Assembly (NCBI GenBank): GCA_011109175.1
Contig: RDEW01000013.1
Location: 1,051,771 to 1,115,770 of the forward strand
Source: Dicyema japonicum
Lineage: Eukaryota > Animalia > Dicyemida
DNA length: 64,000 nt
Reading direction: 5' to 3'
Each line of letters starts with the position of its first letter. Within the stretch, counting starts at the first letter, position 1. The position numbers were made by a program, and so were the translations under genes. Below the pieces are notes generated by a model. That model ran no database searches and was not told where the DNA came from. It saw only the letters and a list, made by a program, of their open reading frames with translations. This document shows positions 29,625 to 63,855 of this stretch, in pieces.

Positions 29625-29828
29625 TCGCGGCCCTAATGTCTGCTAATTCACGGAGTAAGCGTTTCCGCGAACAACTGCGATACCAATTCTTTGCCTCAGC
29701 CAGACCGCTTCCCGCACGTCTTTCTTGCAGTGGCATTTTCCCCCGATTTCCTTTAGGAAAGAGGCTGTAATACTTCCGGCCGCACCAGACGTCTCGATTG
29801 CTACTGGTACAAAACGGTAGCGGTCTCC
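29625..29828 (-). mobile_element. CRE 3'-end stub
   Basis: DRYRFVPVAIETSGAAGSITASFLKEIGG...WLRQRIGIAVVRGNAYSV. Confidence 0.85.
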
Positions 29829-31075
29829 AATTTTTTAACTAATTTACAAGAACTTCGGTCGCACACAATTTGGTTAGGGATTAGTTGATTTCTCTTGTTA
29901 CGTGCTTTATCACGCATTGCGTATAATAATAAACTGCTATCAACGTCATCTAATTTAAAGTGCATGCTTTTTGCAGTGCTTCTGCTACTTCATAAAAGTA
30001 TACCCCTTCAATTCAACATTAACGAATCAAAAATAGATTTTTTACAACCCAAAGTTCAAAAACTATTCAAGATTATCTCTGAACTGAGAAATAACTCTCA
30101 TTGAGGTTGTCCGAGTGATAACTCGTGTAAATATCTGACAAATACGCCACAACCCGATCAACATTGCCATTAATAAGCTTAAAAAATAATTAGAAAACAC
30201 GAACTGATCTACTTTAAACGTTAGGAGTCGAAACAAGGTTGTATAAATGTAAACAAATAATCAGATTCCTAGTCGACCCAGAAATTCCAACGTTGAGGAT
30301 CCAATGGCACTGGAATTCTCCACAGCTAAAGAAGTAAAGAGGCTTTCTCAACGACCAAACAGTCTGGTAGATTTTGTCTATGGCGAAGGTACCCATACAA
30401 GTGACCAGAAGCTTTCCTGCTTTAAATGAGTATCCTATCTGGCCGTTTTCCATTATTCCTACACGAGGTGACAAATAAAAAAATTTGAGTTGATCAACTG
30501 TCTGTCAAGTGGATATTTTAGCTTCTTGGAAGTGTGCTCTATCGACCATATGGTAACATGCTTCAACAGTATCATCTGCGAGGCAGAAAACTACTCATCC
30601 AAAAAAATTTCCCCTTCTCGACACTTTAACACAAAAATTTATCAAAGGACGAAATAGTTGGAAGAGAAAGCCATGGACTAAGACAAGAAAATCAGATGAC
30701 TGGATTGTGTTTACCTGAGATGACTTTCATCGATATATCTCGATGGACCGCAACTCAAAAGCCGGATTCCATCGTCATGTAACTAAAGCACATCGGTCCC
30801 AAGAAATAGAACTAATAGGTTTCCAATGAAATCTTTCCTGATATCAGACAATATAAACGAGCCTATAGACTCGGTTTTGAGGATAATTCTCTCAAAGCAC
30901 ATTTTGGACACTGATTCATCCGAATATTGAATTTTTGTTGGTAAACTTTGTGACTGGAAGATGATGTCAAGTGAAATGTGACCAAATAATATCGAAACTC
31001 GTTCCCTTCCATTGAGTGTCTTTAGGTTATTTCATTTCACTAGCATTGTTCGACCTATACACGATATGCGATAAC

Positions 31076-31722: not shown

Positions 31723-34709
31723 TAATTATTAAAGCAACATACATAAAACCATAATAGTATCACCCATGTGCCGCTAGAAACTATCAAACTAACTAAGCGA
31801 TTCCACCTTCCGTGGTTATGCGCAAGTTCTCTCGAGTAATCCAGATGTTCTCCGCAGTTCAATTTACTGTTGGGATACTTGAGATAAGTATCGAATATTT
31901 CAAGTAGTATGATTCGTCAGAACTGATCAAGTTCTTCTGTATTCCTCATCCGAGACATTATTCTAATCTTTAATTTAATTTAATTAATCCCGGATACACC
32001 GAGAAAGAAGTTAAAGTAAACAACTAATTCAGTGTATCCAGTTTCCACTTCTACAGAAACAGAGTCCATCCGGAATCAACATAAAGGTAAAAGACGTCCA
32101 TTACTTGTAGTTGTGGAAACCCTCCAGTGGAGTGGGGAAAAGCAAATGATCCTTTTTCGTGCCGGCCTGGCACTGGCGTCAACTTCACCAATTAACCACG
32201 CAACACCACATGGCGCCACTCGGCTGATCATTAATTTTGGATATAATATTTTTTGGTTAAAAGAACATCGTGAAACTCATGAAATTAAAATAAAATTTTA
32301 TAAAATTCATTTTTTATTTAAAAAAATTCAATATGCAAAGTGATCCTAGTGCAAAAAGTAGACTTGTGAAAACTAATAGTAGAACACACCAATACAACCA
32401 TTTCACATATGCTGAATATTCCCAAGAACAACTTTTTTGGGAATTGTTTCAAAATTGTATTCACAACAACTTCTGTGGTGGTGACAGTAGGACGAAACAA
32501 ACCGCGGAGCAGAAGCATATCAAATCTTGTAAAGAATTGACCGAAACAGCAAACTTACCTGTTTATATTTACTCCCTTACTCATCATTATTATCCAAAAT
32601 GATTGTTCTGGGTTTTTCGGAAATATGCTTCGGTATTTACCAACTATTTTTTACTTTGTTGTTTGTCACATATTTTGTTTTTTACGCTTAAAAATTTAGT
32701 GACGCTATTTTATTTATTTGCAACAACCCAAGACCACGGTAAAACCAAACTAATTAGCACGTGATCCCGATGCGTTCTAACAGTGACCCCGGTATCTTAC
32801 CTCGTTCCTGCGTATAATGTTACATGACGGCTGACTGATTTACGGGGTCGAATTCTGAAATCTAGTCTCACAAGGACCTTTAAAGGCGTCGATCAGGTTC
32901 AGTGATCTCATAAAAATCTTACGCTCCGTTACTCTGAAAGCCTTCTCTTGGATTACCTCGATCTTCTCATATTTGTCTATATATGCATGTGAGAAACATG
33001 ACTCGATGTACTGTCTGTACAAGTTCATCATGACCGGGTGAGTACTAATCTTTCATATTCTCGTTAAATTTTTTAATACATTCAGTTTTTTTCATGTTTC
33101 ACAGAAATATTTTCTACGTGTGGACAAGATGCTTATCAAATGTCACGATCCCTTGACTCGGTCAGAAAAAGGTTAAAAAAAGCAGGGAATAAAGTAACAC
33201 TCTTGTGGGACTACGCTGAGAAGGAGACGTACCTTGGTGATCCACAGCTTGAGCTTTCCTGGGATCCCCAATTGAAATTTTTTTCCCGATAGTATCTTCC
33301 TCGAGACTCCGTGAACGCTTGTGTTTTAAATGTCTCGGATTGTTTTCAAATCCGACTCGAATCAAGTCAACCACGGCAAACATCCTGAGAGTCATGTTTG
33401 ACTAAAGACTTTCACTTAACATGTGGATAGAATGACGATCCTAAAGAACGTCTCAAAGGGTTTTGGAAGCAATGCTAGATCCCTCACCGCCAATATCGGC
33501 CTAAGCGAATGCATAGAGGTAAGTGAACATCAATACAAAGTCTTGCCCTCTTAGGAACTCAAGCCAACCCCCTTTGACTCATATCCCTCATTTCATTCAA
33601 AATGAGATAAAAACACATTCACAATATCATACACATTATTAGGATGCGCCTAAGCCAGTGAGTACCATCAGTATAAGCAAACGTCCATTGGCTGAGCTAA
33701 ATTCTCAGATTCAACATTTTCGAGTATCATTTCCAATTTAGAATGGAACACGCGGAGAATCAACGGTTTACAACGGGAAGATGTGGGCATCCTCTTATCA
33801 TTTTTTCGCCTTTCCCAGAGATTAGCATTATTCCAGGAAAGGCCATTAAAACTGTCTTGGCTAATATTACTTCAAATCTAGAAATGGAGGAGCCACTGGG
33901 ATTCACAGACACTATGGCTTCTGAGGGTAAGCCCAGTCACTTGACTTCCTGTTAATATACCACACTCTCGACGATGTTTTTAGGAAAAAAGAAATCTATA
34001 TACGTGGCGTCCTTGACCATCAAATTTACGTGTAGAGGTGACATAGAAGATGGAGTCGATTGTTTTGAGTTGTATCTTCGAGAAGCAAGGTGTCCCCCTA
34101 AATAGCGTAGTCCAAGTGTTCCATGAGAATCCAAATTAGGAGACCATATATGTGTTCACAATCAGACCGAGGCTGAAAGTTTCCATTTGTTTTGTGTGAA
34201 TTTAAAGTCAACTATTAAGGTCCCAAAAAAATGTGTGAATATTTTCTTTCACAGTAGATGTGAGTGATTTATTTTTTTCCTCTCCCATGGCTGTGAATGA
34301 CATAGTATTCATGGGCGAAGCAAAATAATCGGCCTGTCGTCTTAATACATAAAGACTTATGAGTCCTCGCATGGATGTTTGAAATCACATGATCATTTTC
34401 AAATTCCTAGTCATCTCATGTGGCTAGCCCACATTCGGAAGTAAATCAAGGTTAAATCAAAACACAGCAGAGTAAATAAATTGGTCCCCATTTTTTTCGC
34501 TCGATCGATAATGTTGTGCAAGATATTTTTACTCCCATCGATTTATGGTATCTAGAGGACATGGCCCACTAACAGAAGACCTAGTCCGTCGGATCCGCTG
34601 AATAATCTAAGAGGTAACGAATAATAGATGGGAGACTATGTGGATTCCAGAGCTTCTCTCGATAATTATCGTCAGAGGAAAGAGCCTTGCTATTCCAGAG
34701 ACATAAATT

Positions 34710-34912
34710 TTTTTTACTAAAAACAATTATTGAACAAAGAAACAAATGTTAGTTGAGGAAGCCGGCTGCGTGGATCGCGAACGAGTTTTCTCGGAGCATG
34801 GCCATTCCAATCTTTTGTCCTTCTCGTTGATTCCTTTTCTTTCTGGCAAGCATTCCTCCGAGTTGGCGCAAGAACTTACCCGTCATTGGACCAACGACTC
34901 CCGATGACTCGC
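34710..34912 (-). mobile_element. 5'-truncated CRE stub with A tail and TSD
   Basis: ESSGVVGPMTGKFLRQLGGMLARKKRNQREG...AAGFLN*; 12-bp TSD gagacataaatt at 34698-34709 and 34913-34924. Confidence 0.88.
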
Positions 34913-35540
34913 GAGACATAAATTAAATTATTTTTTTATTTCCATAAGTTTTTTTTTATATTAAATAAATAGATATTTAACGCAAAAACTAACAATTAAC
35001 AACTATTGGCTGCTCTCATAATTGAGAACGCATTTCCCCTGACGATTTGCGTTCTCAATGACCTGGGTCCTTTCTCTCCTATCATTTTTCTTCTTCACGA
35101 TGAGCGATCCGATTCTGTCTAACAAGACCTGATTCCTGACGTTTCCACAACGACTGGTTCAAGAATGAACTGTTCACCAAGACATACGTATTTCTTCATC
35201 TTTAGGGTCTCAGCCTTTTCTGAAGTAAAGCCTGGGTTAGTGCTGTCACAACAAGGTTGGGAGAGAGGCTATCCACACAGGTGGCGTCCCAGGCAAGGTA
35301 TCTACCCGTTTCCCATGCGAATATAGTAGTTCCCTCCGGTCTTTGGTTGGCCGGGGCGAGTCCGTGCGGTTCCAATTGGACAGGAAATCTGGCACGCTCA
35401 AGTCCCTATGCAATAACTCCGTTGATTGCGACGTGTCTTGGACTCCTTCAGCACTGCTTGGCAGGAAAGAGCGTTTCCTTAATTATATCTTTAATAATTA
35501 AAAAATAAAAAATAGATTAATTTATTTAAAATTTAAACCA

Positions 35541-39262: not shown

Positions 39263-41491
39263 GGACCTTACGTCCACTTACACCTCGGAAGCTGGACGGT
39301 GTCTTGTCAAATCAATTACGGACCTAATCAGAAAAATGGTTAACGGCGACATCCCAAAATATGCCAGAGAATTGCTCTTCTCTGCAAGGCTACTTGCTTT
39401 CAATAAACCCAACGGAGGAATCGCCCCATTGCGGTCGGGAACTATTTTAGAAGACTTGCAGCAAAAGTAGCATCGACCATGGTGAGCAGACAACTCGGAG
39501 AGGAGTTCTTTCCTAAACAAATGGGTGTTAGTATCCAGAACGGATGTGAGGTTGCGGTTCATGCAGCAAGGCGTTTCTTCACACAGAAAAATATTTCAAA
39601 TGAATGCATTGGAATCAAGTTGGACATAACGAATGCCTTTAATTCTCTCAGAAGAGACGAAATTATGAAAACGTGTTGGAAGAGGGCTCCAAAGCTTTTC
39701 CCTCTTGTCAATCTATCCTATGGGGAAGATACGTCTTTGGTTTTTGAAAATGAAATTATTAAATCAAAAACGGGTGTACAACAAGGAGATCCGCTCGGAC
39801 CTCTATTATTTGCCTTGACCATTGATGAGGTTGTGAGTCAATTGATGCTCAGCTAAATCTCTGGTACCTCGATGATGCCACAATTGGAGGATCGTTCAAA
39901 GAAACATACAATTCATTACGTAAAGCGTTACCCGCTTTAAAACATTTGGGCTTGGACATCAATGTTAACAAATCAGAGCTAATAAATGTCTCATATCCAT
40001 ACACCGACTTCCTCTCTATCAAGGAGTCTTTTGAAGAACTGCTTCCTGGGATCCCGACTGTGCCAGTTGATAAATTATATTTCCTCGGATGCCCACTCAG
40101 CGAAGAAGAACTCAAGAACCATCTACTTTCCAAAAATGAAGAATTAACACGCCTTGCGAAAAGATTGTCATGTCTCGACTCTCACACATCTTTCTTCTAA
40201 TGAGAAACAACATCGGACTACCCAAGCTTTTATATCTACTCCGATGTTCACCCTGCTACGAACAATATGACATTCTACTTTCAATGGACAAGTCTCTCAA
40301 GCAAACAGTCGAGTCAATAATTAACGTCCGCTTCGACGAACTTGGTTGGAAACAATGCAAGCTTCCCTCTGGATTTGGGGGTGTCGGAATGAGATCGGCG
40401 CTGGAGGTTGCGTACCCGGCATACCTATCATCTCTCTCAAGCTGCAGTCATTTGACACGGCAAGTCCTTCATAACACAATTGGACTTTGCTGGAATGAGT
40501 CATTTGACGAAGCTTGTCGGAAATGGAACGGGTCCGGACTCAAAATCCCAGAAGACACAACGAAGCAAAGAAATTGGGATGACATTGTCTGCTCCAAAAT
40601 TTTGAAGACCTTAAGAAAGAAGCAAATCAACATCGTCTGGCTTGTTTGGTGTCAGCTTCAAGTCGAGGGAGTGGAGCATGGCTTGGTGCAATACCTTGCC
40701 CAAACCTCGGGACCTTTTTGGACGACGATTCTTTGAGGATTGGAATCGGACAAAGGCTGGGACTAGACGTTTGCCAGGAGCACCGATGCCGATGCGGGAA
40801 AACAGTCGATGCGAAAGGATTGCACCGCTGTCCTGCAGAAGAAGCGCCGGAAGGGGACCACGTCATGCTGCTCTGAATGATGTGATCGTCAGAGCTCTGA
40901 AGGCTTCAGGCTTCCCAGCACAGCTTGAACCAGTGGGTCTTGATCGAGGAGATGGGAAGAGACCTGACGGGATGACCCTTTTCCCCTTCACGTCTGGAAG
41001 ATCTTTGGTCTGGGACGCAACTTGCATAGACACGTTCTCAAGCACGAACATTTTTAAATCTGTTCAGACACCTGGAGCAGCTGCTTCGACCGCGGAAAAC
41101 CTAAAAATCAAGAAATATTCTTGCCTCGGGGATCGCTACCGATTTACTCCTGTTGCGACCGAATCATCGGGAGCCGTTGGTCCAATGACGGCTGAATTCT
41201 TGCAAGAACTCGGAGGATTGCTTGCCAGAAAGAAAAGGGATCAACGAGAAGGGCTATGGCTAAGACAAAAGATTGGAATAGCCATACTCGAGGGAACTCG
41301 TTCGAATCCACGCAGCAGGCTTCCTTAACTGATATTTGTTTAATTGTTAAAAAAAAATTTTAATTTAAAAAATCGCTGTTATTCGCGGAAACGCTTACTC
41401 CGTGATGTCAGCAGCCGCTCTCCCCATAGTTAATAAATAATATTTTATTGTTAATAAATTTTTGTTTTAAAAAAAATTTAAAAAAAAAAAA
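39263..41491 (+). mobile_element. Young 5'-truncated CRE-clade non-LTR retrotransposon (RT + CCHC + RLE), followed by a second CRE 3' stub
   Basis: KLDITNAFNS, GVQQGDPLGP, WYLDD, CRCG..H...C and RH..LND..RPDG..D..KIKKY motifs; A-rich tail. Absent from the duplicate copy (empty site at about 52008). Confidence 0.95.
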
Positions 41492-41519: not shown

Positions 41520-42328
41520 ATTTGAGTAGTTTCCTCTGACGCTCTCGATGCCATCCAGTCTTATGCGGATCTTTGGTGACCTTTGGATCATTGAGTCGAT
41601 CTGACGGACCAGGTCGTCCGCCTGTGGGTCAAGGATTCCTGACTTCTCAACAGAAAAGGGACAAACAAATGATCTCTGAAATGTTTATGTACTTCCTTTT
41701 ATTCTGATCCCAACTTGCGTAGTTTTAGTCCGAGCTGTTGTAGCCAAATTTTTCGGAGTGTACGTGTGAGCATACGTAGCAACCCAAACCAGGTTTCGAC
41801 TATTAGCGAATAGGAAAGTCATCATCTAGTTGGTGCATTTGGCATCCTTCTGGGAGAGACAAGTGTGAAACTAAATATCAACAGAATCTACCGTAAACGA
41901 GACAAGCTGACGGGTTTTTTTCCTTTAAAATTTGGACATTGCTCTAATACAGGAAACACAAGTGTACACTTAACACCATACTAGTCGGTTCAAAAGATTC
42001 TCATTTATTCCCATGAATGGCATTATTCGAACAAACAGAGAATTCTCGATCGACACTGCTACCCAGGGAAGCTGGGACCCAATTGCGAGTAAAAAACGCT
42101 GGAAAGTGCGAAGACAGGAGATAACCAACACAGGCTTGCATGCATCATGTGGCCTGGCTTGAATGCCCATCATGTTCGTCTCTCGGAACACTCTCTGACG
42201 AAAAATTGCCCGAGGATCGGAGTGGCACTACAACTCGGATTGGATGCATGCCTGCGACAGATTCCGTTCTGGAGAGAACGTTAACAAAGAATGTCTACAT
42301 ACTCTTTCTTGCCGACGGAGCGCGGGAC
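41520..42328 (+). mobile_element. Older CRE remnant, left part (continues at 44731-44860)
   Basis: Removing the LINE insert restores NVNKECLHTLSCRRSAG|RSPSH...SLDRGDGKK. Confidence 0.78.
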
Positions 42329-44717
42329 CGAAATCCGAAACCAATTTATTCAACAGTAAGTAAGGAGTTAGTTTAAGTGGTATTTAAACGTGTCCGCCTA
42401 TGCGGCCTGGACACTTCCAATGCACCACGTCTCCATTTAGTCTCCTTCTATCGTCGGATCCCATCGATCCTTTTCTCTACAATATTTTTGACCAATGTTA
42501 GAATCTTGTCTTCTTCAGTACTGAGAACATCAGAAAGCCTTTTCCCCAAAGCCAACTTTATTGCTGACCTTCTGGTTTTTTCCATAAGTAACAATTCTTT
42601 CTTTTGGCAAAAGAAAAACCATGCTTCGCATCCATGTAGCAGCTCCGGAAGAATGACTCTCATGAAGATGAACAAGAAGGTCTCCAAGCTTACAAACAAC
42701 TTTTTCGTACATAAAAGTGCTTGAAGCGCCTTCTTCCTTCTTCGTCTGATGTCCTCCGTGAAGGAACCTCTCCCGTCGATTACTACCCCTAGGTAGCGCA
42801 GTGAATTTACTTTAGGAATCTCTAGTGAGTAAGGCTGGGTCTGATGCCTCCTTAGGCGACTGACTCTTAAATGGCTGGACTTCTCAGTGGACAGTCGCAT
42901 CCCTCTCTTGGTGCACATCCGGTGGAGTTGGAAAGTCTGACAAGAATATGTTGAACAGAAGTGGGGTCAAGACAGAACCTTGTGGAACTCCCCTCTTCAG
43001 TATGATGTCTTTTGACATATTTGCTCCAACACGTACTTGGGAAGTCCGTCTGTTAGGAAGTCCTTTATCCACATGAAAAGTTTCTTTTGAATATCAGCTG
43101 CTGCTAGCCTTGATAGGAGGGCTTCGTGCCACACGCTATCAAAAGCCTTGGACAGATCTAAACATACCAGACTGATTCCTGACCTCTCAATACCATTGAA
43201 TCTAACTGGTAGATGCAGTCCGTGCATGATTTTCCAGGTCTGAAGCCACGGAAACCACTTTCTTCTAAGTGGTCGTTAAGCCTTCTAAAGATAATTCAAT
43301 CGATAATCTTGGAGATCGAACAGATGAGGCTATAGCTGAGTGGGTCCCTCCTCGATTTTCCCGGTTTCATTATCATTCTGACTATAGAAGATTTCCAGCG
43401 TTTTGGGACATGGCCATGATGAATGCTTGCATTGAATATATTCTTCAGAATGGGAAATAGAGCCTCTAGGGCATTCGCGAACAATCTCATGCTTAGATGG
43501 TCAAGTCCTGGAGCGTTAGCCTTGCTTGTCATGATTGAAGTCATGACTTCTTCCGTAGTTATTTTCATTTCAGTATCTTTGAGATCGTCCAAACAGTAGG
43601 TTAAAATTTCACGTGAAGAATCTAACATCTCCCTCGGAATAAGCTCCATCGGGTTGACCCCTGAATGCGGTCCAGTTGCTTCTTAAAGATATCTGGGGAT
43701 TCTTCCATAGAACATAGTCTACCTTCTGGCTTGGTCAAGGATATTTTTGTGTCATTCCTTTTCTGGCCAATTATTATTTTATAGAACTTCCAGAACGAGG
43801 GGTCTTTGGTGTTTAGTTTACTTTCCTCTACCCTCAAACATTGTTCTTGAGATAGTCTTGTTCCTTCTTCAATGGCTTTCTTGATTATCTTCAATTGTCC
43901 GGTCAATGCAATCCGGTCTATCCAGTCCACACATCTTCTGAGTTTGGTCCTCAGGCGATTCCTTTGATCGATCAAGGATTGAGAGCGAAAGACTGATGCT
44001 CTTTCCATGATTGGTACTTGAGGATCTCCTCCTTGCGTAAAGCATTAAGTATGTCTCCATCATGATGGAGAGTTCATTGTCTATGATGTCGATTTCACTT
44101 CGGGAATAATCTTTATCCTTCCAGTCTTTGAGGTTTCTTGATAAGTACCTTCTGTAGTGTTCTCAGTTTACTCTTGTTAGGTCGTAAACACAGAGTCCAT
44201 GGGGTCTGGAGCTAGGTTCAATAACATCTCTTGGGGTATATGGTCACTCCCGATGTCCCACATGATCATCGGCTTCTCTAAATTAGTGTAGAGCACTGGT
44301 GACACCAGGAACACCCCAAGCATGTCTCCCCCGTAGTGCGAGTAATGATTCGGTTTTTCCGATGTCAAAATCTCAAAGCCAGTCTGATTCCATCATCGTT
44401 AGTTCCGAGGCACCCATATTTAATGTTCTTGGCATTTAGATCACCCACTAGGATAGACATATCGTTTCTTGTGAAGAATTCTTCAATTTCTGTGGAGCCC
44501 TTTCTGAGGTCTTTTGAATACATTCTACCGGCGTGTATCCAACAGCCACAGCATATCACCTCGACGGAAACAAATTCACAGTGTGTATTCGCGGTATGGG
44601 GGAAGCAAGCTTCGCAACACACACCAAGATACAAAAATAAGCATTATATCTTGCCCCTTGTAAGGGCGTCCCAGATATAAAGCTGGAAAGAACTGTTGAA
44701 TAAATTGGTTTCGGTTT
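42329..44717 (-). mobile_element. 5'-truncated Jockey/I-group APE-RT LINE carrying its 3' tip at both ends
   Basis: VGDLNAK, GSDHIP, APGLDH, DLSKAFDSVWH, GVPQGSVLTP and RYLGV motifs. 13-bp TSD at 42316-42328 and 44718-44730. Inverted actgttgaataaattggtttcgg termini. Confidence 0.9.
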
Positions 44718-45289
44718 CGGAGCACGGGACGTTCCCCGAGCCATGACGTTTTCTACGGGCCTTCAGAGCCGGAGGGTTTTTTGTTCAACTGAAACCCTTC
44801 AGCTTGGACAGAGGCGATGGGAAGAAGCAAGATTAGTGTCATAATTCCAGCCTTCGCAATCCTGACTTCTTAACTAAAAAGTTTTACTAGTTTTCATTAA
44901 AAAAATTATAGCGAAAAAATTAAATATTAGAATTTTAACTAGCAAAGTTAAATTAAAAAAATTAAAACATGAAGATGTTTTCCCCAACTAATTATGTGAC
45001 CCTGGTATTCCATATTACAGATACAAGGAATGTCCAGTGTTCCTTAGACGTTTCCACCGTTTTCCTGTATCTACTGAGTTTTTTTATAATGAAGAAATCG
45101 ACCGATGGAATTGATTTTGTCGTTTGATCCAACATCGAAACGATAGGTTCCGTTTATTGATTACAAGGCATTGAGGTGAGAAGAGTAGAGTTTTTTTGGC
45201 GATCGGCATGGGGTGTTTAAGCTTTTTGCTGCATGGGTGAGTGAAGATATGCCTCTTATAACAGGGATCTGACACGCCAGATCCTACGC

Positions 45290-45420: not shown

Positions 45421-45592
45421 AGAAAGGCAATTAACAATAATCGATGCTGCTCACAAAAAACGAAGCAAAACTGAGTGTCCTTTACTGTTCTCTCTTCAAT
45501 TAAACAATAAATCGAAAGTTAATTTTTTCCATTTTTAATTTTTTGATGGCTAACCTAAATTTGCCAAAAAATTAATAAAATTATATAAAACA

Positions 45593-46105
45593 ATGTTCAC
45601 TGCGATTTTCTGTGTCTTATTTCTAAAAGTCAATTCCTATGAACTCCCTTATGAGAATTGTGGTATTAACTATTAAAAACATAAACTTAGAGGGAATGAG
45701 CAACACAGTCAGTGTTAGCGTCCACATCTATGATTCATTGATAGCCAGTGATGAAACAACTATCAGATATACTTTCGTGGCAGGTGGTTTGTGAGTTTGA
45801 TTAGACTTTAATTCGACTTCTTTTAGTGGAGTAATAAGTGTTGTTCCTGGGAGAACATGTCTTCGTGGCTACACATTCATAGGTTATCATCAAATCGAAA
45901 GAACTTTTAATTGTCCGGTATGTCATTTGAGAAGTGGAAGACAAAATAAGTTCGATTTCATTAGAAAATTTTTAGCAGATTTACTGCTGGTTCTTTGTTT
46001 AAAAAATTATAGCATCCCTGCATGGACATTAAACTCAAAATCGTGGATCAAATGGGTAATACCGTCGTTTGTGCTATTTTCCCGGTTCAGCTGAGACTGG
46101 AATAA
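45593..46105 (+). CDS. Secreted ML-domain (NPC2/MD-2-like) protein, type B, intact, 146 aa
   Basis: Exons 45593-45662, 45691-45783, 45805-45989 and 46013-46105 splice into an uninterrupted ORF: MFTAIFCVLFLKVNSYELPYENC...TIRYTFVADFNSTSFSG...NCPVC...DIKLKIVDQMGNTVVCAIFPVQLRLE*. Signal peptide and 6 Cys in the mature part. Confidence 0.82.
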
Positions 46106-47199
46106 TTAGATTAGTTCACTTTTGGGGTTAAAATCGGGTTTTTTGTTGATTAACTGACAATTTAATTTAAATTCAGGAAATAAGGACTGTTAATGGAGTA
46201 CTTTATATAGGTCCCCCATAAAGCTTTAGCTCCTCCATTTATCTATTTGAGAGACTTATTCCAAATCTGGCAATCCCCTCTGTGATAACTTCAACTAAGC
46301 TTTTGTTAATTAAATTCGAATGTGAACTCAAAAATACTTGATAAAAATATCCGCCCTTTTTTTAAATCTCATAAATGTCCGAATGTAAGTTTTTCCTGAA
46401 GGTCATTATTATGATAAGTGACTTATTTAAAGACTGCGGATTAAATTACTTCTGCATTGTCCACAGCTGAAAAACTTTTCCTATTTCACACTGATGATCG
46501 CATGCCTTCATCAAACGATAGAGTACTCAATTGGCTCACATAATGTTAAAATAGCCTAAGTCTTCCGTCTAATCGAGTTTCTCAACCTGTTGAAGTCTTC
46601 AGTGACATTATTAATAAGAGATCGAATGAAAATCAACACAATCCTGCTAATCCCTAACTAACCTATTTTTTGTGAACAAACCTAAAAAATTCTGATAATC
46701 TCAAATTTTAATTTTTTTAATATTGAGTTTGAGAAAAAAACGTTATAAATAACCACAAAGTAGATTTGTCAGTAAACTCTCTCATCACTAACAATGATGT
46801 AAATTTTTGGAATTTATGGCACTTTGGTATGTGGCGTGAATGTTTTTATACATTTTGTAAACACAAAAGTTTCCTTGACTGTAAGATCGTCGACATGCAG
46901 AAATGCGATTTTTATTTATAGAAAACAGTTAAGTATTAGGCGAGAAAAACATCAGTCGCGTTATTATAATTTGCAATGTTTTTTACCTGCCAATTTAAAA
47001 TGTGCCTTTTTATTTCTAAGTCGCGTACACAGACTGTCTTAGTGTTGTAGGAGAAAAGGGTTACGTTGATCGCTTAGACCTGAGTATACATGGGCATAAC
47101 AAATCTGACACACTAAGCTCCAGGGGACGCATAAGATAACTTGAGTATACATGGGCACACTAACAAATCTGAAAAACACAATAATCTCATTGAAGAGTA

Positions 47200-48629
47200 A
47201 TAATTTGCAAGCTTACAGCTATGCTATGATAACGGCCCACAACGCCAACTATGACCTTGATTGAAGATACCAAGTGTTCATCAGTAAGCCTTGTTCTCTG
47301 AGTGATTTTGTTGATTTCATTAAGGAAAACAGCTGTTCAACACATAGGTGGACAAAAACTTTTTGACTCAGACGACACCATGTAGCAGATCACCATCCAA
47401 ATGGAGCTGAACCTGTCTTTTTGAATCAATTTGATTAACCAATATATTCCACCACAACGATTCTACCCAAAATCCTACCTCCCAAATATACCCCGTCTCT
47501 CAGTACAAAAGAACGTTCTAATTTGCGGCGATTTAAATGCCCGACACCCCGTTTAGCTCGCTTCACAGTCCTCTGACAGCCGAGGCGAGTTCATCGCAAA
47601 TGGTCTTATTGATATGAGTATCCTGAATGACCATAAATTAGACACGAGAACTCCTTTAAGGGGCACTGATAGCTGCACTTCTGATTTAACCTTATGTTCA
47701 CCTTCCTTAGCAGGAATCACTACATGGGATGTGAATTATGGTTTTTCCTGCGACCACAATCCCATTCTTCTTATGGTAAAAGCATTTCGGGGACGCTGGA
47801 CATTGCAGACCGAAATAAAAAGTTTCAAGAATTATAAAAAGGTTGACTGGTCTCTCTGGCTACGACGACCTGGAATTGGTCAAAGGACTATCATTTATAT
47901 ACGTTCGATGGACGAAGCCGCAAAAATCATCAGTGTGGCCATTCAAAAGGCTGACAACATATTTATTCCTCTCTCATCATACACGAATTTTATACCCTCG
48001 ATTCCCGGACACTTACACTCAAAACAAAGAAATCAAATGAAAAGATGCCGTCCGACAGAGTTGAAATCCATCACAAGCAGGTCTCAGGGGTTATTGCCGG
48101 ATTAAAAAACTCACGGGCCTACGGCCCTGACAAAGTATCTTGAATTTACCTGAAACACCTAAGCCACTATGCAATCGGCTTCCTCACGCAAGTATTTAAC
48201 CTGTTCATTAACTCAATATTATTCCTCAAAAATTGGAAGAACTCTGTTATCAAACCAGTTTTGAAGGCTGAAAACCGGAAAGAGAACCTGTTTCATAGAG
48301 ACCAATCTCCTTAACCAGCACATTACCAAAACTTCTTGAAAAATTAGTAATAACTGTAATTACTCCGAACCTCCATCAAGCGGCTTTTCAACATGGCTTT
48401 GTCCTGGAAGGTCCACCACCCAGTTAACACATATCCCAATTCATAACCGCAGGAGGATTTAATGCTACCCCATGACACATGCAACTATAATGGTGTCAAT
48501 CGACATAAACAAGCTCTCAACAAGGTCCCAAGGGAAGCTTCTTATTGGGGAAGATTTTTTTTGAAACCTAAAGCTGTGGTCGGCCAACTTTCTCTCTGGG
48601 CGATGTGGGAGAGTCTTTGTGGGCAACTT
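47200..48629 (+). mobile_element. Degenerate Jockey/I-type LINE (APE and RT start), cut by a MULE
   Basis: NVLICGDLNA, SCDHNPIL, GPDKVS and RPISLTSTLPKLLEK motifs, with frameshifts. Confidence 0.8.
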
Positions 48630-51966: not shown

Positions 51967-52813
51967 TTTATTTCAATAAATTTATTTATAATTAATTTTT
52001 ATTTATAATTAAACTAAATTAATTTTACTTTGGGGAGTTTGAGTAGTTTCCTCTGACGCTCTCGATGCCATCCAGTCTTATGCGGATCTTTGGTGACCCT
52101 TTGGATCATTGAGTCGATCTGACGGACCAGGTCGTCCGCTTGTGGGTCAAGGATTCCTGACTTCTCAACAGAAAAGGGACAAACAAATGATCTCTGAAAT
52201 GTTTATGTACTTCCTTTTATTCTGATCCCAACTTGCGTAGTTTTAGTCCGAGGCTGTTGTAGCCAAATTTTTCGGAGTGTACGTGTGAGCATACGTAGCA
52301 ACCCAAACCAGGTTTCGACTATTAGCGAATAGGAAAGTCATCATCTAGTTGGTGCATTTGGCATCCTTCTGGGAGAGACAAGTGTGAAACTAAATATCAA
52401 CAGAATCTACCGCAAACGGTTTTTTTCCTTTAAAATTTGAACATTGCTCTAATACAGGAAACACAAGTGTACACTTAACACCATACTAGTCGGTTCAAAA
52501 GATTCTCATTTATTCCCATGAATGGCAATATTCGAACAAACAGAGAATTCTCGATCGACACTGCTACCCAGGGAAGCTGAGACCCTATTGCGAGTAAAAA
52601 GACGCTGGAAAGTGAGAAGACAAGAGATAACCAACACAGGCTTGCATGCATCATGTGGCCTGGCTTGAATGCCCATCATGTTCGTCTCTCGGAACACTCT
52701 CTGACGAAAAATTGCCCGAGGATCGGAGTGGCACTACAACTTGGATTGGATGCATGGAGAGAACGTTAACAAAGAATGTCTACATACTCTTTCTTGCCGA
52801 CGGAGCGCGGGAC

Positions 52814-55228
52814 CGAAATCCGAAACCAATTTATTCAACAGTAAGTAAGGAGTTAGTTTAAGTGGTATTTAAACGTGTCCGCCTATGCGGCCTGGACACT
52901 TCCAATGCACCCTATTTCCATTTAGTCTCCTTCTATCGTCGGATCCCATCGATCCTTTTCTCTACAATATTTTTGACCAATGTTAGAATCTTGTCTTCTT
53001 CAGTACTGAGAACATCAGAAAGCCTTTTCCCCAAAGCCAACTTTATTGCTGACCTTCTGGTTTTTTCCATAAGTAACAAAATTCTTTCTCTTTGGCAAGA
53101 GAAAAACCATGCTTCGCATCCATAGCAGCTCCGGAAGAATGACTCTCATGAAGATGAACAAGAAGGTCTCCAAGCTTACAAACAACTTTTTTGTACATAA
53201 AAGTGCTTGAAGCGCCTTCTTCCTTCTTCGTCTGATGTCCTCCATGAAGGAACCTCTCCCGTCGATTACTACCCCTAGGTAGCGCAGTGAATTTACTTTA
53301 GGAATCTCTAGTGAGTAAGGCTGGGTCTGATGCCTCCTTAGGCGACTGACTCTTAAATGGCTGGACTTCTCAGTGGACAGTCGCATCCCTCTCTTGGTGC
53401 ACATCCGGTGGAGTTGGAAAGTCTGACAAGAATATGTTGAACAGAAGTGGGGTCAAGACAGAACCTTGTGGAACTCCCCTCTTCAGTATGATGTCTTTTG
53501 ACATATTTGCTCCAACACGTACTTGGGAAGTCCGTCTGTTAGGATGTCCTTTATCCACATGAAAAGTTTTTTTTGAATATCAGCTGCTGCTAGCCTTGAT
53601 AGGAGGGCTTCGTGCCACACGCTATCAAAAGCCTTGGACAGATCTAAACATACCAGGTTAACTAGTCTTTTGATTCCAGACCTCTCAATACCATTGAATG
53701 CATCTGGTAGATGCAGTCCGTGCATGATTTTCCAGGTCTGAAGCCACATTGTTCTGCGAGGAAAAAACCACTTTCTTCTACGTGGTCGTTAAGCCTTCTA
53801 AAGATAATTCAATAGATAATCTTGGAGATCGAACAGATGAGGCTATAGCTGAGTGGGTCCCTCCTCGATTTTCCCGGTTTCATTATCATTCTGACTATAG
53901 AAGATTTCCAGCGTTTTGGGACATGGCCATGATGAATGCTTGCATTGAATATATTCTTCAGAATGGGAAATAGAGCCTCTAGGGCATTCGCGAACAATCT
54001 CATGCTTAGATGGTCAAGTCCTGGAGCGTTAGCCTTGCTTGTCATGATTAAAGTCATGACTTCTTCCGTAGTTATTTTTATTTCAGTATCTTTGAGATCG
54101 TCCAAACAGTAGGTTAAAATTTCACGTGATGAATCTAACTCTCCCTTGGAATAAGCTCCATCGGGTTGACCCTTTGAATGCGGTCCAGTTGCTTCTTAAA
54201 GATATCTGAGGCTTCTTCCATAGAACATAGTCCACCTTCGGGCTTGGTCAAGGAGATTTTTATGTCATTCCTTTTCTGGCCAGTTATTCTTTTATAGAAC
54301 TTCCAGAACGAGGGGTCTTTGGTGTTTAGTTTGCTTGCCTCTACCCTCAAACATTGTTCTTGAGATAGACTTGTTCCTTCTTCAATGGCTTTCTTGATTA
54401 TCTTCTGTTGTCCGGTCAATGCAATCCGGTCTATCCAGTCCACACATCTTCTGAGTTTGGTCCTCAGGCGATTCCTTTCATCAATCAAAGATAGAGCGCG
54501 AAAGACTGATGCTCTTTCCATGAATATTACTTGATGATCTCCTCCTTGCGTAAAGCATTAAGTATTACTCCGTCATGATGGAGAGTTCATTGTCTATGGT
54601 GTCGATTTCACTTGGGAATAATCTTTATTTTTTCAGTCTTTGAGGTTTCTTGATAAGTACCTTCTGTAGTGTTCCCAGTTTACTCTTGTTAGGTCGTAAA
54701 CACAGAGTCCATGGGGTCTGGAGCTAGGTTCAATAACATCTCTTGGGGTATATGGTCACTCCCGATGTCCCACATGATCATCGGCTTCTCTAAATAAGTG
54801 TAGAGCACTGGTGACACCAGGAACACCCCAAGCATGTCTCCCCCGTAGTGCGAGTAATGATTCGGTTTTTCCGATGTCAAAATCTCAAAGCCAGTCTGAT
54901 TCCATCATCGTTAGTTCCGAGGCACCCATATTTAATGTTCTTACTATTTAGATCACCCACTAGGATAGACATATCGTTTCTTGTGAAGAATTCTTCAATT
55001 TCTGTGGAGCCCTTTCTGAGGTCTTTTGAATACATTCTACCGACGTGTATCCAACAGCCACAGCATATCACCTCGACGGAAACAAATTCACAGTGTGTAT
55101 TCGCGTATGGGGGAAGCAAGCTTCGCAACACACACCAAGATACAAAAATAAGCATTATATCTTGCCCCTTGTAAGGGCGTCCCAGATATAAAGCTGGAAA
55201 GAACTGTTGAATAAATTGGTTTCGGTTT
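52814..55228 (-). mobile_element. Duplicate of the double-tailed LINE
   Basis: Same termini; TSD at 52801-52813 and 55229-55241. Confidence 0.9.
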
Positions 55229-56124
55229 CGGAGCACGGGACGTTCCCCGAGCAATGACGTTTTCTACGGGCCTTCAGAGCCGGAGGGTTTTTTGTTCAAC
55301 TGAAACCCTTCAGCTTGGACAGAGGCGATGGGAAGAAGCAAGATTAGTGTCATAATTCCAGCCTTCGCAATCCTGACTTCTTAACTAAAAAGTTTTACTA
55401 GTTTTCATTAAAAAAATTAATAATTTTAAAAAAAAATTATAGCGAAAAAATTAAATATTAGAATTTTAACTAGCAAAGTTAAATTAAAAAAATTAAAACA
55501 TGAAGATGTTTTCCCCAACTAATTATGTGACCCTGGTATTCCATATTACAGATACAAGGAATGTCCAGTGTTCCTTAGACGTTTCCACCGTTTTCCTGTA
55601 TCTACTGAGTTTTTTTATAATGAAGAAATCGACCGATGGAATTGATTTTGTCGTTTGATCCAACATCGAAACGATAGGTTCCGTTTATTGATTACAAGGC
55701 ATTGAGGTGAGAAGAGTAGAGTTCTTTTTGGCGATCGGCAGGGGGTGTTTAAGCTTTAGGCTGCATGGGTGAGTGAAGATATGCCTCTTATAACAGGGAT
55801 CTGACACGCCAGATCCTACGCTACAGTCCAGATTTAGTTGCAATCTTGAAGTGGCGATCTGGATGTCCTGATCACATGACGCAATTACAATGTCGTCGGC
55901 ATAAGTCAGAATAATATCATTGTCGGCGTCAGGATTGATCTTTTTTAGATTAAGAAAGGCAATTAACAATAATCGATGCTGCTCACAAAAAACGAAGCAA
56001 AACTGAGTGTCCTTTACTGTTCTCTCTTCAATTAAACAATAAATCGAAAGTTAATTTTTTCCATTTTTAATTTTTTGATGGCTAACCTAAATTTGCCAAA
56101 AAATTAATAAAATTATATAAAACA

Positions 56125-57719: not shown

Positions 57720-60700
57720 AAGCTTACAGCTATGCTATGATAACGGCCCACAACGCCAACTATGACCTTGATTGAAGATACCAAGTGTTCATCAGTAAGC
57801 CTTGTTCTCTGAGTGATTTTGTTGATTTCATTAAGGAAAACAGCTGTTCAACACATAGGTGGACAAAAACTTTTTGACTCAGACGATACCATGTAGCAGA
57901 TCACCATCCAAATGGAACTGAACCCGTCTTTTTGAATCAATTTGATTAACCAATATATTCCATCACAACGATCCTACCCAAAATCCTACCTCCCAAATAT
58001 ACCCCGTCTCTCAGTACAAAAGAACGTTCTAATTTGCGGCGATTTAAATGCCGACACCCCGTTTGGCTTGCTTCACAGTCCTCTGACAGCCGAGGCGAGT
58101 TCATCGCAAATGGTCTTATTGATATGAGTATCCTGAATGACCATAAATTAGACACAAGAACTCTTTAAGGGGCACTGATAACTGCACTTCTGATTTAACC
58201 TTATGTTCACCTTCCTTAGCAGGAATCACTACATGGGATGTGAATTATGGTTTTTCCTGCGACCACAATCCCATTCTTCTTATGGTAAAAGCATTTCGGG
58301 GACGCTGGACATTGCAGACCGAAATAAAAAGTTTCAAGAATTATAAGAAGGTTGACTGGTCTCTCTGGCTACGACGATCTGGAATTGGTCAAAGGACTAT
58401 CATTTATATACGTTCGATGGACGAAGCCGCAAAAATCATCAGTGTGGCCATTCAAAAGGCTGACAACATATTTATTCCTCTCTGATCATACACGAATTTT
58501 ATACCCTCGATTCCCGGACACTTACACTCAAAACAAAGAAATCAAATGAAAAGATGCCGTCCGACAGAGTTGAAATCCATCACAAGCAGGTCTCAGGGGT
58601 TATTGCCGGATTAAAAAACTCACGGGCCTACGGCCCTGACAAAGTATCTTGAATTTACCTGAAACACCTAAGCCACTATGCAATCGGCTTCCTCACGCAA
58701 GTATTTAACCTGTTCATTAACTACAATATTATTCCCAAAAATTGGAAGAACTCTGTTATCAAACCAGTTTCGAAGGCTGGAAAACCGAAAGAGAACCTGC
58801 TTCATAGAGGCCAATCTCCTTAACCAGCACATTATCAAAACTTCTTGAAAAATTAGTAATAACTGTAATTACTCCGAACCTCCATCAAGCGGCTTTTCAA
58901 CATGGCTTTGTCCTGGAAGGTCCACCACCCAGTTAACCACAATATCCCAATTCATAACCGCAGGATTTAATGCTACCCCATGACACATGCAAACTATAAT
59001 GGTATCAATCGACATAAACAAGGCTCTCAACAAGGTCCCAAGGAAGCTTCTTATTGGGAAGATTTTTTTTGAAACCTAAAGCTGTGGTCGGCCAACTTTC
59101 TCTCTGGGCGACGTGGGAGAGTCTTTGTGGGCAACTTGGTACTAGGACATTTGCCGACAATTCAATTAAGCATAAATGATCAAGAAATACACTATGCATA
59201 TTAATAACGATAAAAAATGGAATTTACACGAACCACTCGTGGAAAGAGAAAACTTCTGCATGATGGCTATGCGTACATTATGGATAGACAGAGAGACAAT
59301 GTCATGTATTAGAGATGTGAGCTGAAAGGAAAATGCAAAGGCAGAGTAAGAACTGTTAACGAAGAACTAATGGAACTATGACACCACACGAACATTCACC
59401 AAATGCAGGATGTTTACATGCGCTGAAAACCGTCAATACGATATAGAAGAGAGCGAGAGATTCTGGAGAAACTACATCCACAGTTATCCAAAATTGCTTA
59501 AGCACATACCCCATTGATGCTGCTTGTGAACTACCCAAAAAAGAAACCCTTACACGTACTGTTCGACGACAGCGTACAGATCAAATACAAGACGGTAATG
59601 TTCTAACTGATGAACTTAAAAGTACTCTTAGAAGAGATGATTTTGTACTACACGATAGTGATGGATTGCTTATATTAACAACAGCGAGAAACCTTGACCT
59701 TATGTCTATGAAAGAACATTGGTTATGTGATGGTACTTTCGGTTCTCGGCTTTCTCCAACCTTTTTCAATCTTTTCCTCCACGACTTACCAAATTACGAG
59801 GACGAAAAATTTTAATTCAGCTCCATGAGGTTTTCAGTTATGCACTATACATGTTACATTATGTGAAACATGTACGGTTCCTTTAGTGTACGCTATTGCT
59901 CGAGAAAAAAACTCAACAAATGTATGAACAAATATTTTCAACACTGAAAGAGAAAAAGCCTCAATTGAATCCACTATCATTTACCATAGATTATAAGACA
60001 AGTAAGAAGTACAAAAGGATAAACAGTATTATTGAAAAATATGATGATTACACTCCAGTAGAATTCTTGAGTGAGCTTTTTCATAACCTTTAAGTGAGTC
60101 TTAACTGTTTTACCTACAGAACAATGAGTATTGATGAAACTTTTTAACTCATTTTATTTGATGTTTTTTATATTAAATTTTATCTCTGAATTTTAAAACA
60201 ATGTGCTTAATAAAAAGTATGACATATTTCTTAGTTATTTGTGAAAATTCCCTGTAGGCCAAATGTCTGGACATCGGGCAACTTAGATCGAGATCACGAC
60301 TACTACCTAATGGACTACCACAAGGTTCTCGGCTTTCTCCAACCTTTTTCAATCTTTTCCTCCACGACTTACCAAATTACGAGGACGAAAATCTTTTACT
60401 ATTATCCTACGCAGACGACCTAATAATTGCAACACGCAACCGATCAACGCAAGTTGCAACCTCAAATGCTCAGGCGGGAGTGAACACCGTCTTTGATTGG
60501 CTGACTGCTAACCGACTAACTATTTCTGCCAAAAATTCAATATGTGCACTTTTCACTTCAGACCCTCGTTCTAAAGAAGGTCCAATAATTTTTATTGGTC
60601 TTTCCAGATACCGGTGACAAGGTCTCCTTCAAATCTTGGGCCTATGTTTGACAGGCTAGTGAACTTTAACTCACATGCGAAGAAAGTCCTCACTAAAAGA

Positions 60701-61063: not shown

Positions 61064-63419
61064 TTGCCATATTCCTTGTTGGAAACTTTCTGATGGTTGT
61101 AAACTTTTCAGGAAGATGTGAATAGAAACCAGATATCCCCACTTGTCAAAAAGTCGTCAGCGATGGAAGAAGTTAACTAGTACATGTTTTTGTGACGTCA
61201 TATGACATAGCGAAGTAATGTTATAGATGTAAGAGCCCAGTGATCCGGTAAACAAATGCATGCAAGCACCTTGTAGGACAGTATCGTTGTTCTGAGAACG
61301 TTCGTAAAAACCACGGCCTATCAATTTGTCGTCATTGACAGAAATCCACTGGCTTTCTCTGGTGGTCCAATTCAAAACCACTGATTCGGATGGGAAGAGG
61401 GGGTAAAGATGAGAATAGTATCCTAAACAATGTTGTAAGACAACGTAATTCAAAGATAATTCAATCGATAATCTTGGAGATCGAACAGATGAGGCTATAG
61501 CTGTGTGGGTCCCTCCTCGATTTTCCCGGTTTCATTATCATTCTGACTATATAAGATTTTGGACATGGCCATGATGAATGTTTGCATTGAATATATTCTT
61601 CAGAATGGGAAATAGAGCCTCTAGGGCATTCGCGAACAATCTCATGCTTAGATGGTCAAGTCTGGAGTGTTAGCCTTGCTTTTCATGATTGAAGTCATGA
61701 CTTCTTCCGTAGTTATTTTCATTTCAGTATCTTTGAGATCGTCCAAAGAGTAAATTAAAATTTCATGTGAAGAATCTAACATCTCCCTTGGAATCAGCTC
61801 CATTGGGTTGACCCCCTGAATGCGGTCTAGTTGCTTCTTAAAGATATCTGGGGCTTCTTCCATAGAACATAGTCCACCTTCTGGCTTAGTCAAAGAGATT
61901 TTTATGTCATTCCTTTTCTGGCAGTTATTTTTTTGTAGAACTTCCAGAACGAAGGGTCTTTGGTGTTTAGTTTGCTTGCCTCTACCCTCAAACATTGTTA
62001 TTAAGACAGTCTTGTTCCCTCTTCAATGGCTGTCATGATTATCTTCAGTTGTCCGGTCAATGCAATCAGGTCTACCCAGTCCACACATTTTCTGAGTTTG
62101 GTCCTTAGGCGATTCCTTTCATTGATCAAAGATTGACGCGAAAGACTGATGCTCTTTCCATGAATATTACTTGAGGATCTCCTCTTGCGTAAAGCATTAA
62201 GTATGTCTCCATCATGATGGAGAGTTCATTGTCTATGATGTCGATTCACTTCGGGAATAATCTTTATCCTTCCAGTTTGAGGTTTCTTGATATGTACCTT
62301 CTGTAGTGTTCCCAGTTTACTCTTGTTAGGTCGTAAACACAGAGTCCATGGGTCTGGAGCTAGGTTCAATAACATCTCTTGGGGTATATGGTCACTCCCG
62401 ATGTCCCACATGATCATCGGCTTCTCTAATAGTGTAGAGCATGGTGACACCAGGAACACCCCAAGCATGTCTCCCCCGTAGTGCGAGTAATGATTCGGTT
62501 TTTCCGATGTCAAAATCTCAAAGCCAGTCTGATTCCATCATCGTTAGTTCCGAGGCACCATATTTAATGTTCTTGGCATTTAGATCACCCACTAGGATAG
62601 ACATATCGTTTCTTGTGAAGAATTCTTCAATTTCTGTGGACACTTTCTAAGGTCTTTTGAATACATTACCGACGTGTATCCAACAGCCACAGCATCTCAC
62701 CTCGACGGAAACAAATTCACAGTGTGTATTCGCGGTATGGGGGAAGCAAGCTTCGCAACACACACCAAGATACAAAAATAAGCATTATATCTTGCCCCTT
62801 GTAAGGGCGTCCCAGATATAAAGCTGGAAAGAACTGTTGAATAAATTGGTTTCGGTTTCGGAGCACGGGACGTTCCCCGAGCCATGACGTTTTCTACGGG
62901 CCTTCAGAGCCGGAGGGTTTTTTGATCAACTGAAACCCTTCAGCTTGGACAGAGGCGATGGGAAGAAGCAAGATTAGTGTCATAATTCCAGCCTTCGCAA
63001 TCCTGACTTCTTAACTAAAAAGTTTTACTAGTTTTCATTAAAAAAATTAATAATTTAAAAAAAAATTATAGCGAAAAAATTAAATATTAGAATTTTAACT
63101 AGCAAAGTTAAATTAAAAAAATTAAAACATGAAGATGTTTTCCCCAACTAATTATGTGACCCTGGTATTCCATATTACAGATACAAGGAATGTCCAGTGT
63201 TCCTTAGACGTTTCCACCGTTTTCCTGTATCTACTGAGTTTTTTTATAATGAAGAAATCGACCGATGGAATTGATTTTGTCGTTTGATCCAACATCGAAA
63301 CGATAGGTTCCGTTTATTGATTACAAGGCATTGAGGTGAGAAGAGTAGAGTTCTTTTTGGCGATCGGCAGGGGGTGTTTAAGCTTTAGGCTGCATGGGTG
63401 AGTGAAGATATGCCTCTTA

Positions 63420-63623
63420 TAACAGGGATCTGACACGCCAGATCCTACGCTACAGTCCAGATTTAGTTGCAATCTTGAAGTGGCGATCTGGATGTCCTGA
63501 TCACATGACGCAATTACAATGTAACAGGGATCTGACACGCCAGATCCTACGCTACAGTCCAGATTTAGTTGCAATCTTGAAGTGGCGATCTGGATGTCCT
63601 GATCACATGACGCAATTACAATG
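63420..63623 (+). repeat. 102-bp tandem duplication unique to copy C
   Basis: 63420-63521 is repeated at 63522-63623 (an in-frame 34-aa repeat in the ORF track). Confidence 0.92.
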
Positions 63624-63855
63624 TCGTCGGCATAAGTCAGAATAATATCATTGTCGGCGTCAGGATTGATCTTTTTTAGATTAAGAAAGGCAATTAACAA
63701 TAATCGATGCTGCTCACAAAAAACGAAGCAAAACTGAGTGTCCTTTACTGTTCTCTCTTCAATTAAACAATAAATCGAAAGTTAATTTTTTCCATTTTTA
63801 ATTTTTTGATGGCTAACCTAAATTTGCCAAAAAATTAATAAAATTATATAAAACA

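What the first reader, a model, noticed from the sequence alone, without database searches (positions are those of the whole stretch)
42316..44730. LINE insertion with a 3' tail at both ends (double-tailed TPRT product)
Seen: the minus-strand APE-RT LINE ends, after its ORF, in ...actgttgAATAAAttggtttcggatttcg (42329-42357). At its truncated 5' junction sits an outward-facing inverted copy of the same tip (actgttgaataaattggtttcggttt, 44692-44717). The whole insert lies in a 13-bp direct repeat, cggagc(g/a)cgggac. Removing it restores the host CRE reading frame LSCRRSAG|RSPSH, which confirms the TSD. Both target ends share microhomology with the (TTTCGG)n tail. Established: L1 twin priming gives 5' inversions made from internal RNA sequence, not a second 3' tail. 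Inference: both target nicks primed reverse transcription at an RNA 3' end (two RNPs, or re-priming on one RNA). Alternatively this family routinely has inverted termini, as Penelope-like elements can. Copies at 52801-55241 and about 62833-62870 are duplicates of the same single event.
Basis: partly seen in the sequence, partly recalled or inferred. Interest (0 to 1): 0.78.

Follow-up and report, generated by a model that had tools for sequence, protein, structure and literature searches.

The report
Jumping gene with two tails
A broken copy of a common jumping gene carries its own 26-letter tail a second time, backwards, at its front end, likely because both cut DNA ends started copying the element's RNA in one insertion, an accident already described for human LINE-1.

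Summary
A 2,389-bp, 5'-truncated APE-RT LINE (42329-44717, minus strand) sits in a 13-bp target duplication inside a dead CRE. It has the family's 3' tip at both ends (26-nt inverted repeat). Short-read contigs hold both junctions. Diverged family copies run from the body into this tip, and native APE sequence continues differently past 44693, so the motif is the 3' end and not internal APE. Most likely both target ends primed reverse transcription at an RNA tail in one event, probably on two RNAs (0.55), else on one (0.25), and the cDNAs joined at a 2-nt overlap. What is extra here is an element with a short-repeat tail rather than poly(A), whose inverted piece extends into unique 3' sequence. 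It is a single event: none of the 15 of 18 family joints shown repeats it. Inverted ends on full-length copies were not tested. This scan found similar one-offs in other genomes.

The parts
42316..42328 (+). Left copy of the 13-bp target-site duplication, in a dead CRE
   Evidence: bridged by contigs
42329..42357 (-). Native 3' tip of the LINE: unique sequence with AATAAA, then two TTTCGG-type units (one extra A)
   Evidence: diverged family contigs run from body into it (X2 record 10, X4 record 26)
42384..42424 (-). Predicted 3' hairpin with a GCAUA loop; possible RT recognition site (lead only)
   Evidence: z -2.84, 3 of 200 shuffles, stretch chosen, where the 92-nt end gave z -0.71
42358..44693 (-). 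LINE body: frameshifted APE-RT frame, cut about 55 codons into the APE domain; frame stops at 42448 and 42373
   Evidence: Pfam RVT_1 E 4.9e-07 (above cut-off) and Exo_endo_phos_2 E 5.4e-04 (below cut-off); P0117 residues 71-161 align to 44643-44377; stops
44692..44693 (.). 2-nt overlap (AC) shared by the truncated APE end and the inverted tip: the internal junction
   Evidence: native APE continues AGATACTAC.. behind 44693 in 4 X1 contigs and 1 X3 contig, also X4
44692..44717 (+). Inverted, outward-facing second copy of the 3' tip (26 nt: about 17 unique nt plus repeat tail)
44718..44730 (+). Right copy of the target-site duplication (one G/A difference at a CpG; first CGG shared with the tail)
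42051..44833 (+). Host: degenerate CRE-like element, matching the CRE at 39263-41490 on both sides of the insert
   Evidence: tblastx and tblastn; empty-site alignment
52801..55241 (-). Segmental duplicate of the same insertion, both junctions
61452..62871 (-). Third, partial duplicate: right junction only, joined at 61452 to unrelated DNA

Best explanation
This is one insertion of a high-copy APE-RT LINE in which both cut target ends likely primed reverse transcription at the 3' repeat tail of a LINE RNA, most likely on two separate RNAs (dual priming). Shown: the 13-bp duplication, a tail at each end facing outward, and a 2-nt overlap at the internal junction. Inferred steps: (1) the two strands were cut 13 nt apart; (2) the top-strand end (..GGGAC) primed on one tail and was extended about 2.36 kb, stopping in the APE region; (3) the bottom-strand end (..CTCCG) paired with CGG of a tail and was extended 26 nt; (4) the two cDNA ends met at AC/GT and each served as template for the other's second strand; (5) the locus was later duplicated. 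Which end primed first cannot be told. The product is a dead, 5'-truncated copy with no function expected.
For: TSD bounded at 13 bp and restoring the CRE register; 5'-inverted L1 inserts mostly have 10-20 bp TSDs (PMC4245944). The tip is the family's 3' end and is not native APE. Both junctions occur in contigs; the right-junction contigs are 3.0 times as deep as the left-junction contigs in X1 and X3, matching three right junctions in the window. For two RNAs: both cDNAs begin at the end of the second repeat unit and both copy the same 26 nt, so on one RNA the two primers would compete for the same bases (inference). The two tails differ by one base. Two L1 reporter RNAs were recovered at one site with TSD and poly(A) in 2 events (PMC13526784). 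Nine two-transcript insertions were found by long reads, some in opposite orientation (PMC11702581).
Against: One event only. One RNA can give overlapping cDNAs: 283 of 1,703 inverted L1 inserts carry an internal duplication (bioRxiv 2024.08.27.596794), and overlaps have a median of 12 bp, quartiles 4-17 (PMC12016303). Slippage at repeat tails (PMC1636434) or later mutation could explain the one-base tail difference. Primer pairing is only 1-3 nt. The experimental two-RNA events were selected on 150 bp of homology, not a 2-nt overlap. The runs are one sample, and no listed piece links the two junctions.
Confidence: 0.55

Rival explanations
1. Twin priming on one RNA. One target end primed in the tail and stopped after 26 nt. 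The other end primed in the same RNA's tail and copied through the same stretch by displacing the first cDNA. It is the same event class with one template.
For: Meyer et al. prefer this for their 11 double-tailed loci. Overlapping cDNAs are common in twin priming. No second RNP is needed.
Against: Both priming points map to the end of the second repeat unit, and the overlap covers the whole short arm (26 nt), above the reported upper quartile of 17. The tails differ by one base.
Confidence: 0.25
2. DNA-templated patch. During repair of the 5' junction the free target end paired by CGG with a sense DNA strand of a LINE 3' end (this or another copy), was extended 26 nt by a repair polymerase, and was then joined at AC.
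For: Short length and 2-3 nt overlaps at both ends fit templated insertions (own knowledge of theta-type end joining); 22 templated insertions are reported with L1. The family supplies many templates.
Against: The patch starts in the tail, where target-primed copying starts, and the TSD is intact. A DNA template could have come from anywhere.
Confidence: 0.07
3. The family has an inverted copy of its tip at the 5' end of full-length elements, and this copy is an internal deletion that joined that end to the APE region at AC.
For: Not excluded: the 5' end of full-length copies lies outside the window. About 2,900 of summed X1 depth on 44696-44719 comes from contigs not listed.
Against: 0 of 15 joints shown (18 in all) join the body to the tip. 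I know of no APE-RT LINE with such ends (own knowledge). Native 3' ends can explain the extra depth.
Confidence: 0.06
4. Two separate insertions in opposite orientation, in two similar CRE copies, were joined by recombination, by concurrent insertion or by the assembler, which mimics one TSD.
For: The two 13-mers differ at one base. The region is duplicated and patchily diverged. Double-tailed bridges from two sites are described for L1. No listed contig spans the insert.
Against: The flanks meet in exact CRE register with a 13-bp overlap, which two independent sites would rarely give. The mismatch is a CpG-type change. The internal junction is in the contigs, so it is not an assembler join.
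Confidence: 0.07

Closest known systems
Primate L1 insertions with 5' poly(T), twin-priming variants and postulated dual priming (Meyer et al. 2010, PMC2837659; parts 1-4 of 6 read)
   Same: Truncated LINE, tail at both ends facing outward (11 of 39 loci), one TSD (7-20 bp, mean 14), microhomology at the target junctions, very short inverted arm (14-39 bp).
   Different: Here the tail is a short repeat, not poly(A). The inverted arm reaches about 17 nt into unique 3' sequence that the long arm also holds; Meyer et al. found no such sequence and could not separate one RNA from two. The internal junction has a 2-nt overlap; theirs showed no significant microhomology.
Two L1 reporter RNAs inserted at one site (PMC13526784, passages and part 1 of 2 of section 9); two-transcript insertions (PMC11702581, section 7)
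   Same: Two cDNAs from opposite DNA ends sealed into one insertion with a TSD.
   Different: Human L1 in cultured cells; the reporter events joined through designed homology. I did not see their supplementary figure or data, so whether both ends carry poly(A) is unchecked.
Classical twin priming (Ostertag and Kazazian 2001, seen only as cited)
   Same: Two opposed cDNAs in one TSD, joined by microhomology, with occasional overlap.
   Different: The second primer normally lands inside the RNA; here both arms start at the tail.
Stringent LINEs with a 3' stem-loop and short repeat tail, e.g. eel UnaL2 (PMC1636434, passages)
   Same: APE-RT frame, short 3' repeat, predicted hairpin with a similar five-base loop (GCAUA against GGAUA).
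   Different: Clade not established here. ZfL2-1 gave no 5' inversions in culture (PMC4245944).
Penelope-like elements with inverted ends (recalled)
   Same: Inverted terminal sequence.
   Different: This element has an N-terminal APE-type domain, not GIY-YIG, and the inverted arm is 26 nt.

Membership tests
APE-type non-LTR retrotransposon (LINE) | RT domain | tested here: met
   RVT_1 E 4.9e-07 and 1.1e-04 on two fragments; 33 of 33 relatives of 800-1350 aa, out of 150 listed, hit the insert by tblastn
APE-type non-LTR retrotransposon (LINE) | APE endonuclease upstream of RT | tested here: met
   Exo_endo_phos_2 E 5.4e-04, below the curated cut-off; N-terminal parts of P0117, P0125, P0140 and P0018 align there
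APE-type non-LTR retrotransposon (LINE) | Shared 3' end with repeat tail, 5' truncation, TSD | tested here: met
   tails and flanks of other copies were not displayed, so the family-wide tail unit is inferred
Named LINE clade (L2, CR1, Jockey, other) | RT phylogeny with named references | not testable with these tools
   9 of 10 clusters looked up had no name and one was 'hypothetical protein'; three homolog searches were empty
Double-tailed TPRT product (Meyer 2010) | Inverted tail touching the 5' TSD, truncated LINE, 3' tail, one TSD of 6 bp or more | tested here: met
Double-tailed TPRT product (Meyer 2010) | Verified pre-insertion site in an outgroup or allele | tested here: inconclusive
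   Only a paralogous CRE gives the register; no empty allele was seen
Dual priming (two RNAs) | The two arms derive from different RNA molecules | tested here: inconclusive
   Full overlap and a one-base tail difference favour it; the 23-nt core is identical
Family with routine inverted termini | Independent copies with an inverted tip at the 5' junction | tested here: inconclusive
Penelope-like element | GIY-YIG endonuclease or none, no APE (recalled) | tested here: not met
   APE-type domain and no GIY-YIG hit on the 7 insert fragments scanned

The most novel reading that the evidence does not exclude
This LINE family loads a second RNP on the other cut end as a recurring route, or carries an inverted tip on full-length copies. 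It would then be a non-poly(A) LINE family that regularly makes elements with a tail at both ends, and a natural system for telling two-RNA from one-RNA priming by subfamily-specific bases in the tips.
Probability: 0.08. Interest if true: 0.62.

Novelty: new member of a known kind. Interest (0 to 1): 0.27.

Why it matters
Meyer et al. could not separate dual from twin priming because their inverted arms never left the poly(A). This insertion has an inverted arm with unique 3' sequence that is also in the long arm, so it is a cleaner natural example, and it comes from a LINE with a short-repeat tail. As a single dead copy it does not settle the question. A genome-wide count in this family could: two tips from different subfamilies inside one TSD would prove two RNAs. 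I found no paper on such a case in a LINE without poly(A) (searches; open-access library only).

Tried and rejected
No whole genome is held, so copies could not be collected. No RNA holder was listed. The 23-nt tip had 0 matches in metagenome contigs. Three homolog searches with LINE fragments were empty. The Atlas gave unnamed clusters plus an RVT_1 lead. PDB gave only weak L1 ORF2 matches, E 0.07-0.24. Rejected: (a) chance inverted repeat; (b) native APE sequence; (c) assembler-made internal junction; (d) a later, separate 26-bp insertion, because no duplication flanks the tip on its own; (e) three independent events, because junctions and flanks are shared; (f) Penelope-like element. I considered TTTCGG as a telomere repeat: the only double units in the window are the five tips; not followed further. 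The second read-laying was meant also to test for an inverted tip on full-length copies. It gave no verdict, since no loose end appeared before 44692. PMC10191854 (passages) and PMC2912911 (passages) showed no double-tailed class in the passages seen. Earlier findings by sequence and by place returned nothing.

Full report
Observation. The insert spans 42329-44717 (2,389 bp) between cggagcgcgggac (42316-42328) and cggagcacgggac (44718-44730); the repeat extends in neither direction. Its two ends are a 26-nt inverted repeat, 42332-42357 and 44692-44717, 96% complementary. The 23-nt exact core occurs five times in the window, all in the three duplicates, against 0 in 100 shuffles (the pattern was taken from the data). 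In 500 Markov resamples of the insert the longest exact inverted match was at most 18. Both flanks match the near-intact CRE at 39263-41490, and with one 13-mer removed they read LSCRRSAG|RSPSH in register with that CRE's LSCRRSAG|RGPRH. The copy at 52801-55241 has both junctions. The third copy keeps only the right one and is joined to unrelated DNA at 61452. These are duplicates of one event.

The element. The minus strand holds a frameshifted APE-RT frame. Of seven insert fragments scanned, two hit RVT_1 (E 4.9e-07, 1.1e-04), one hit Exo_endo_phos_2 (E 5.4e-04, below cut-off) and four hit nothing. A fragment found 884 relatives at E 0.001 or better. Of the 150 listed, I gave the 33 of 800-1350 aa to tblastn and all hit the insert; P0117 residues 71-161 align to 44643-44377, so about 55 codons of APE are missing. 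The frame stops at 42448 and again at 42373, followed by AATAAA and two TTTCGG-type units. The clade could not be named. A hairpin with a GCAUA loop is predicted at 42384-42424 (z -2.84), but I chose that stretch after the whole 92-nt end gave z -0.71. It resembles the GGAUA loop of eel UnaL2 (PMC1636434, passages) and is a lead only.

Read evidence. No genome is held. Four runs of one sample hold the region as Logan contigs; they may be the assembly's source and are not independent. In X1, summed depth is 34,000-153,000 over the body against 650-930 on the left flank and 2,400-3,200 on the right. The tool warns this is no copy number, but the family is clearly high-copy: single X3 contigs on the APE stretch are 19-24 times as deep as the left-junction contig. 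The left junction is bridged in X1, X3 and X4. Diverged copies run from the body into the tip: X2 record 10 (42338-42503, 19 differences) and X4 record 26 (42335-42482, 11 differences). A variant with 8 letters in place of 56 at 42363-42420 keeps the tip side in all four runs. Against a uniform end, 8 X1 contigs differ left of 42381. Native APE continues behind 44693 with other sequence in 4 X1 contigs and 1 X3 contig, so the inverted tip is not internal APE and shares only AC with it. The internal junction is in X3 record 13 (44664-44765, 0 differences, depth 105.7) and X1 record 7 (44665-44721, 0 differences, depth 1,446). Both fall 3-4 letters short of the tool's 31-letter rule on the left side, but every 31-mer of record 7 crosses the junction. 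Their depth is 3.0 times that of the left-junction contigs in both runs. No listed piece spans the whole insert.

Is it routine? Of 18 joints found across the 2.85-kb stretch, 15 were shown and none joins the body to the tip, although sides of 20-21 letters were reported. Only 24 of 892 loose ends and 32 of 7,566 pieces were shown, so this is partial. An inverted tip at the 5' end of full-length copies is therefore untested.

Mechanism. Shown: one bounded 13-bp duplication, two outward-facing tails, target overlaps of 3 nt (right) and 1-2 nt (left), and a 2-nt internal overlap. Inferred: staggered cuts 13 nt apart left two 3' ends. The top-strand end was extended about 2.36 kb on a LINE RNA from its tail, and the bottom-strand end 26 nt from a tail. 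The cDNA ends met at AC/GT and completed each other. I favour two RNAs (0.55) because both arms start at the end of the second repeat unit and copy the same 26 nt, so on one RNA the primers would compete for the same bases. One RNA remains open (0.25). Internal duplications occur in 283 of 1,703 inverted L1 inserts (bioRxiv 10.1101/2024.08.27.596794, passages; supplements closed). Overlaps have a median of 12 bp, quartiles 4-17 (PMC12016303, passages). Slippage at repeat tails can change them. A DNA-templated patch (0.07), two sites joined (0.07) and family inverted termini (0.06) are the minor rivals.

Comparison with what is known. Meyer et al. 2010 (PMC2837659; parts 1-4 of 6 read) describe 39 primate L1 loci with a 5' poly(T) inside one TSD, 11 with a 3' poly(A) as well. 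They explain these by twin priming within the tail, introduce dual priming by two mRNAs, and say they cannot tell the two apart. PMC13526784 (passages and part 1 of 2 of section 9; supplement not seen) reports two insertions made from two L1 reporter RNAs at one site, with TSD and poly(A). PMC11702581 (passages and section 7) reports nine two-transcript insertions. PMC13174262 (outline and passages) ascribes antisense chimeras to priming from both ends. PMC4245944 (passages) found 5' inversions almost only with L1 in human cells, none with ZfL2-1 and one with Nimb-2, and ties them to 10-20 bp TSDs, which fits the 13 bp here. What differs is the short-repeat tail and the unique sequence in the inverted arm. 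I found no paper on that case, which cover an open-access library only. Earlier notes of this scan describe similar one-off inverted tails in other genomes (unchecked, not used as support).

Verdict. Real, single, dead insertion; a new member of a known kind; interest 0.27. The boldest reading left open is that the family does this repeatedly or has inverted ends on full-length copies (probability 0.08, interest 0.62). A genome-wide copy count would decide it.

Noticed in passing
window 39263-41490: Near-intact, frameshifted CRE (RVT_1 E 1.5e-11) present in the first segmental duplicate and absent at the matching place (about 52007) in the second, in an AT-rich site.
   Followed up: partly
window 43500-44040 and its copies: The duplicates differ by about 5-8% in this patch of the LINE but about 1% in the flanks: gene conversion from other family copies or polishing with paralogous reads.
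   Followed up: no
window 61452: The third duplicate starts mid-RT, joined to unrelated DNA with no tail or TSD.
   Followed up: partly
window 42384-42424 (-): Predicted hairpin with a GCAUA loop near the LINE 3' end, like the GGAUA loop of UnaL2; conservation across copies not tested.
   Followed up: partly
window 59741-59808 and 60324-60391: A 68-nt identical piece of an RT-coding stretch occurs twice, 583 bp apart.
   Followed up: no
window 63420-63624: Perfect 102-bp tandem duplication in the third duplicate only.
   Followed up: no
window 18839-19441 (-), 47557-48102 (+), 60258-60614 (+), 1879-2322 (-): Fragments of other APE or RT elements, unrelated to this LINE at DNA level.
   Followed up: no
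window 21286-21417: A 132-bp piece 98% identical to the CRE at 40713-40843; further CRE relics at 5381-5530, 29661-29831 and 34709-35447.
   Followed up: no
window 1-3183 and 13699-16835: A 3.2-kb duplication at 96% identity, distantly related (71%) to 45523-46878.
   Followed up: no
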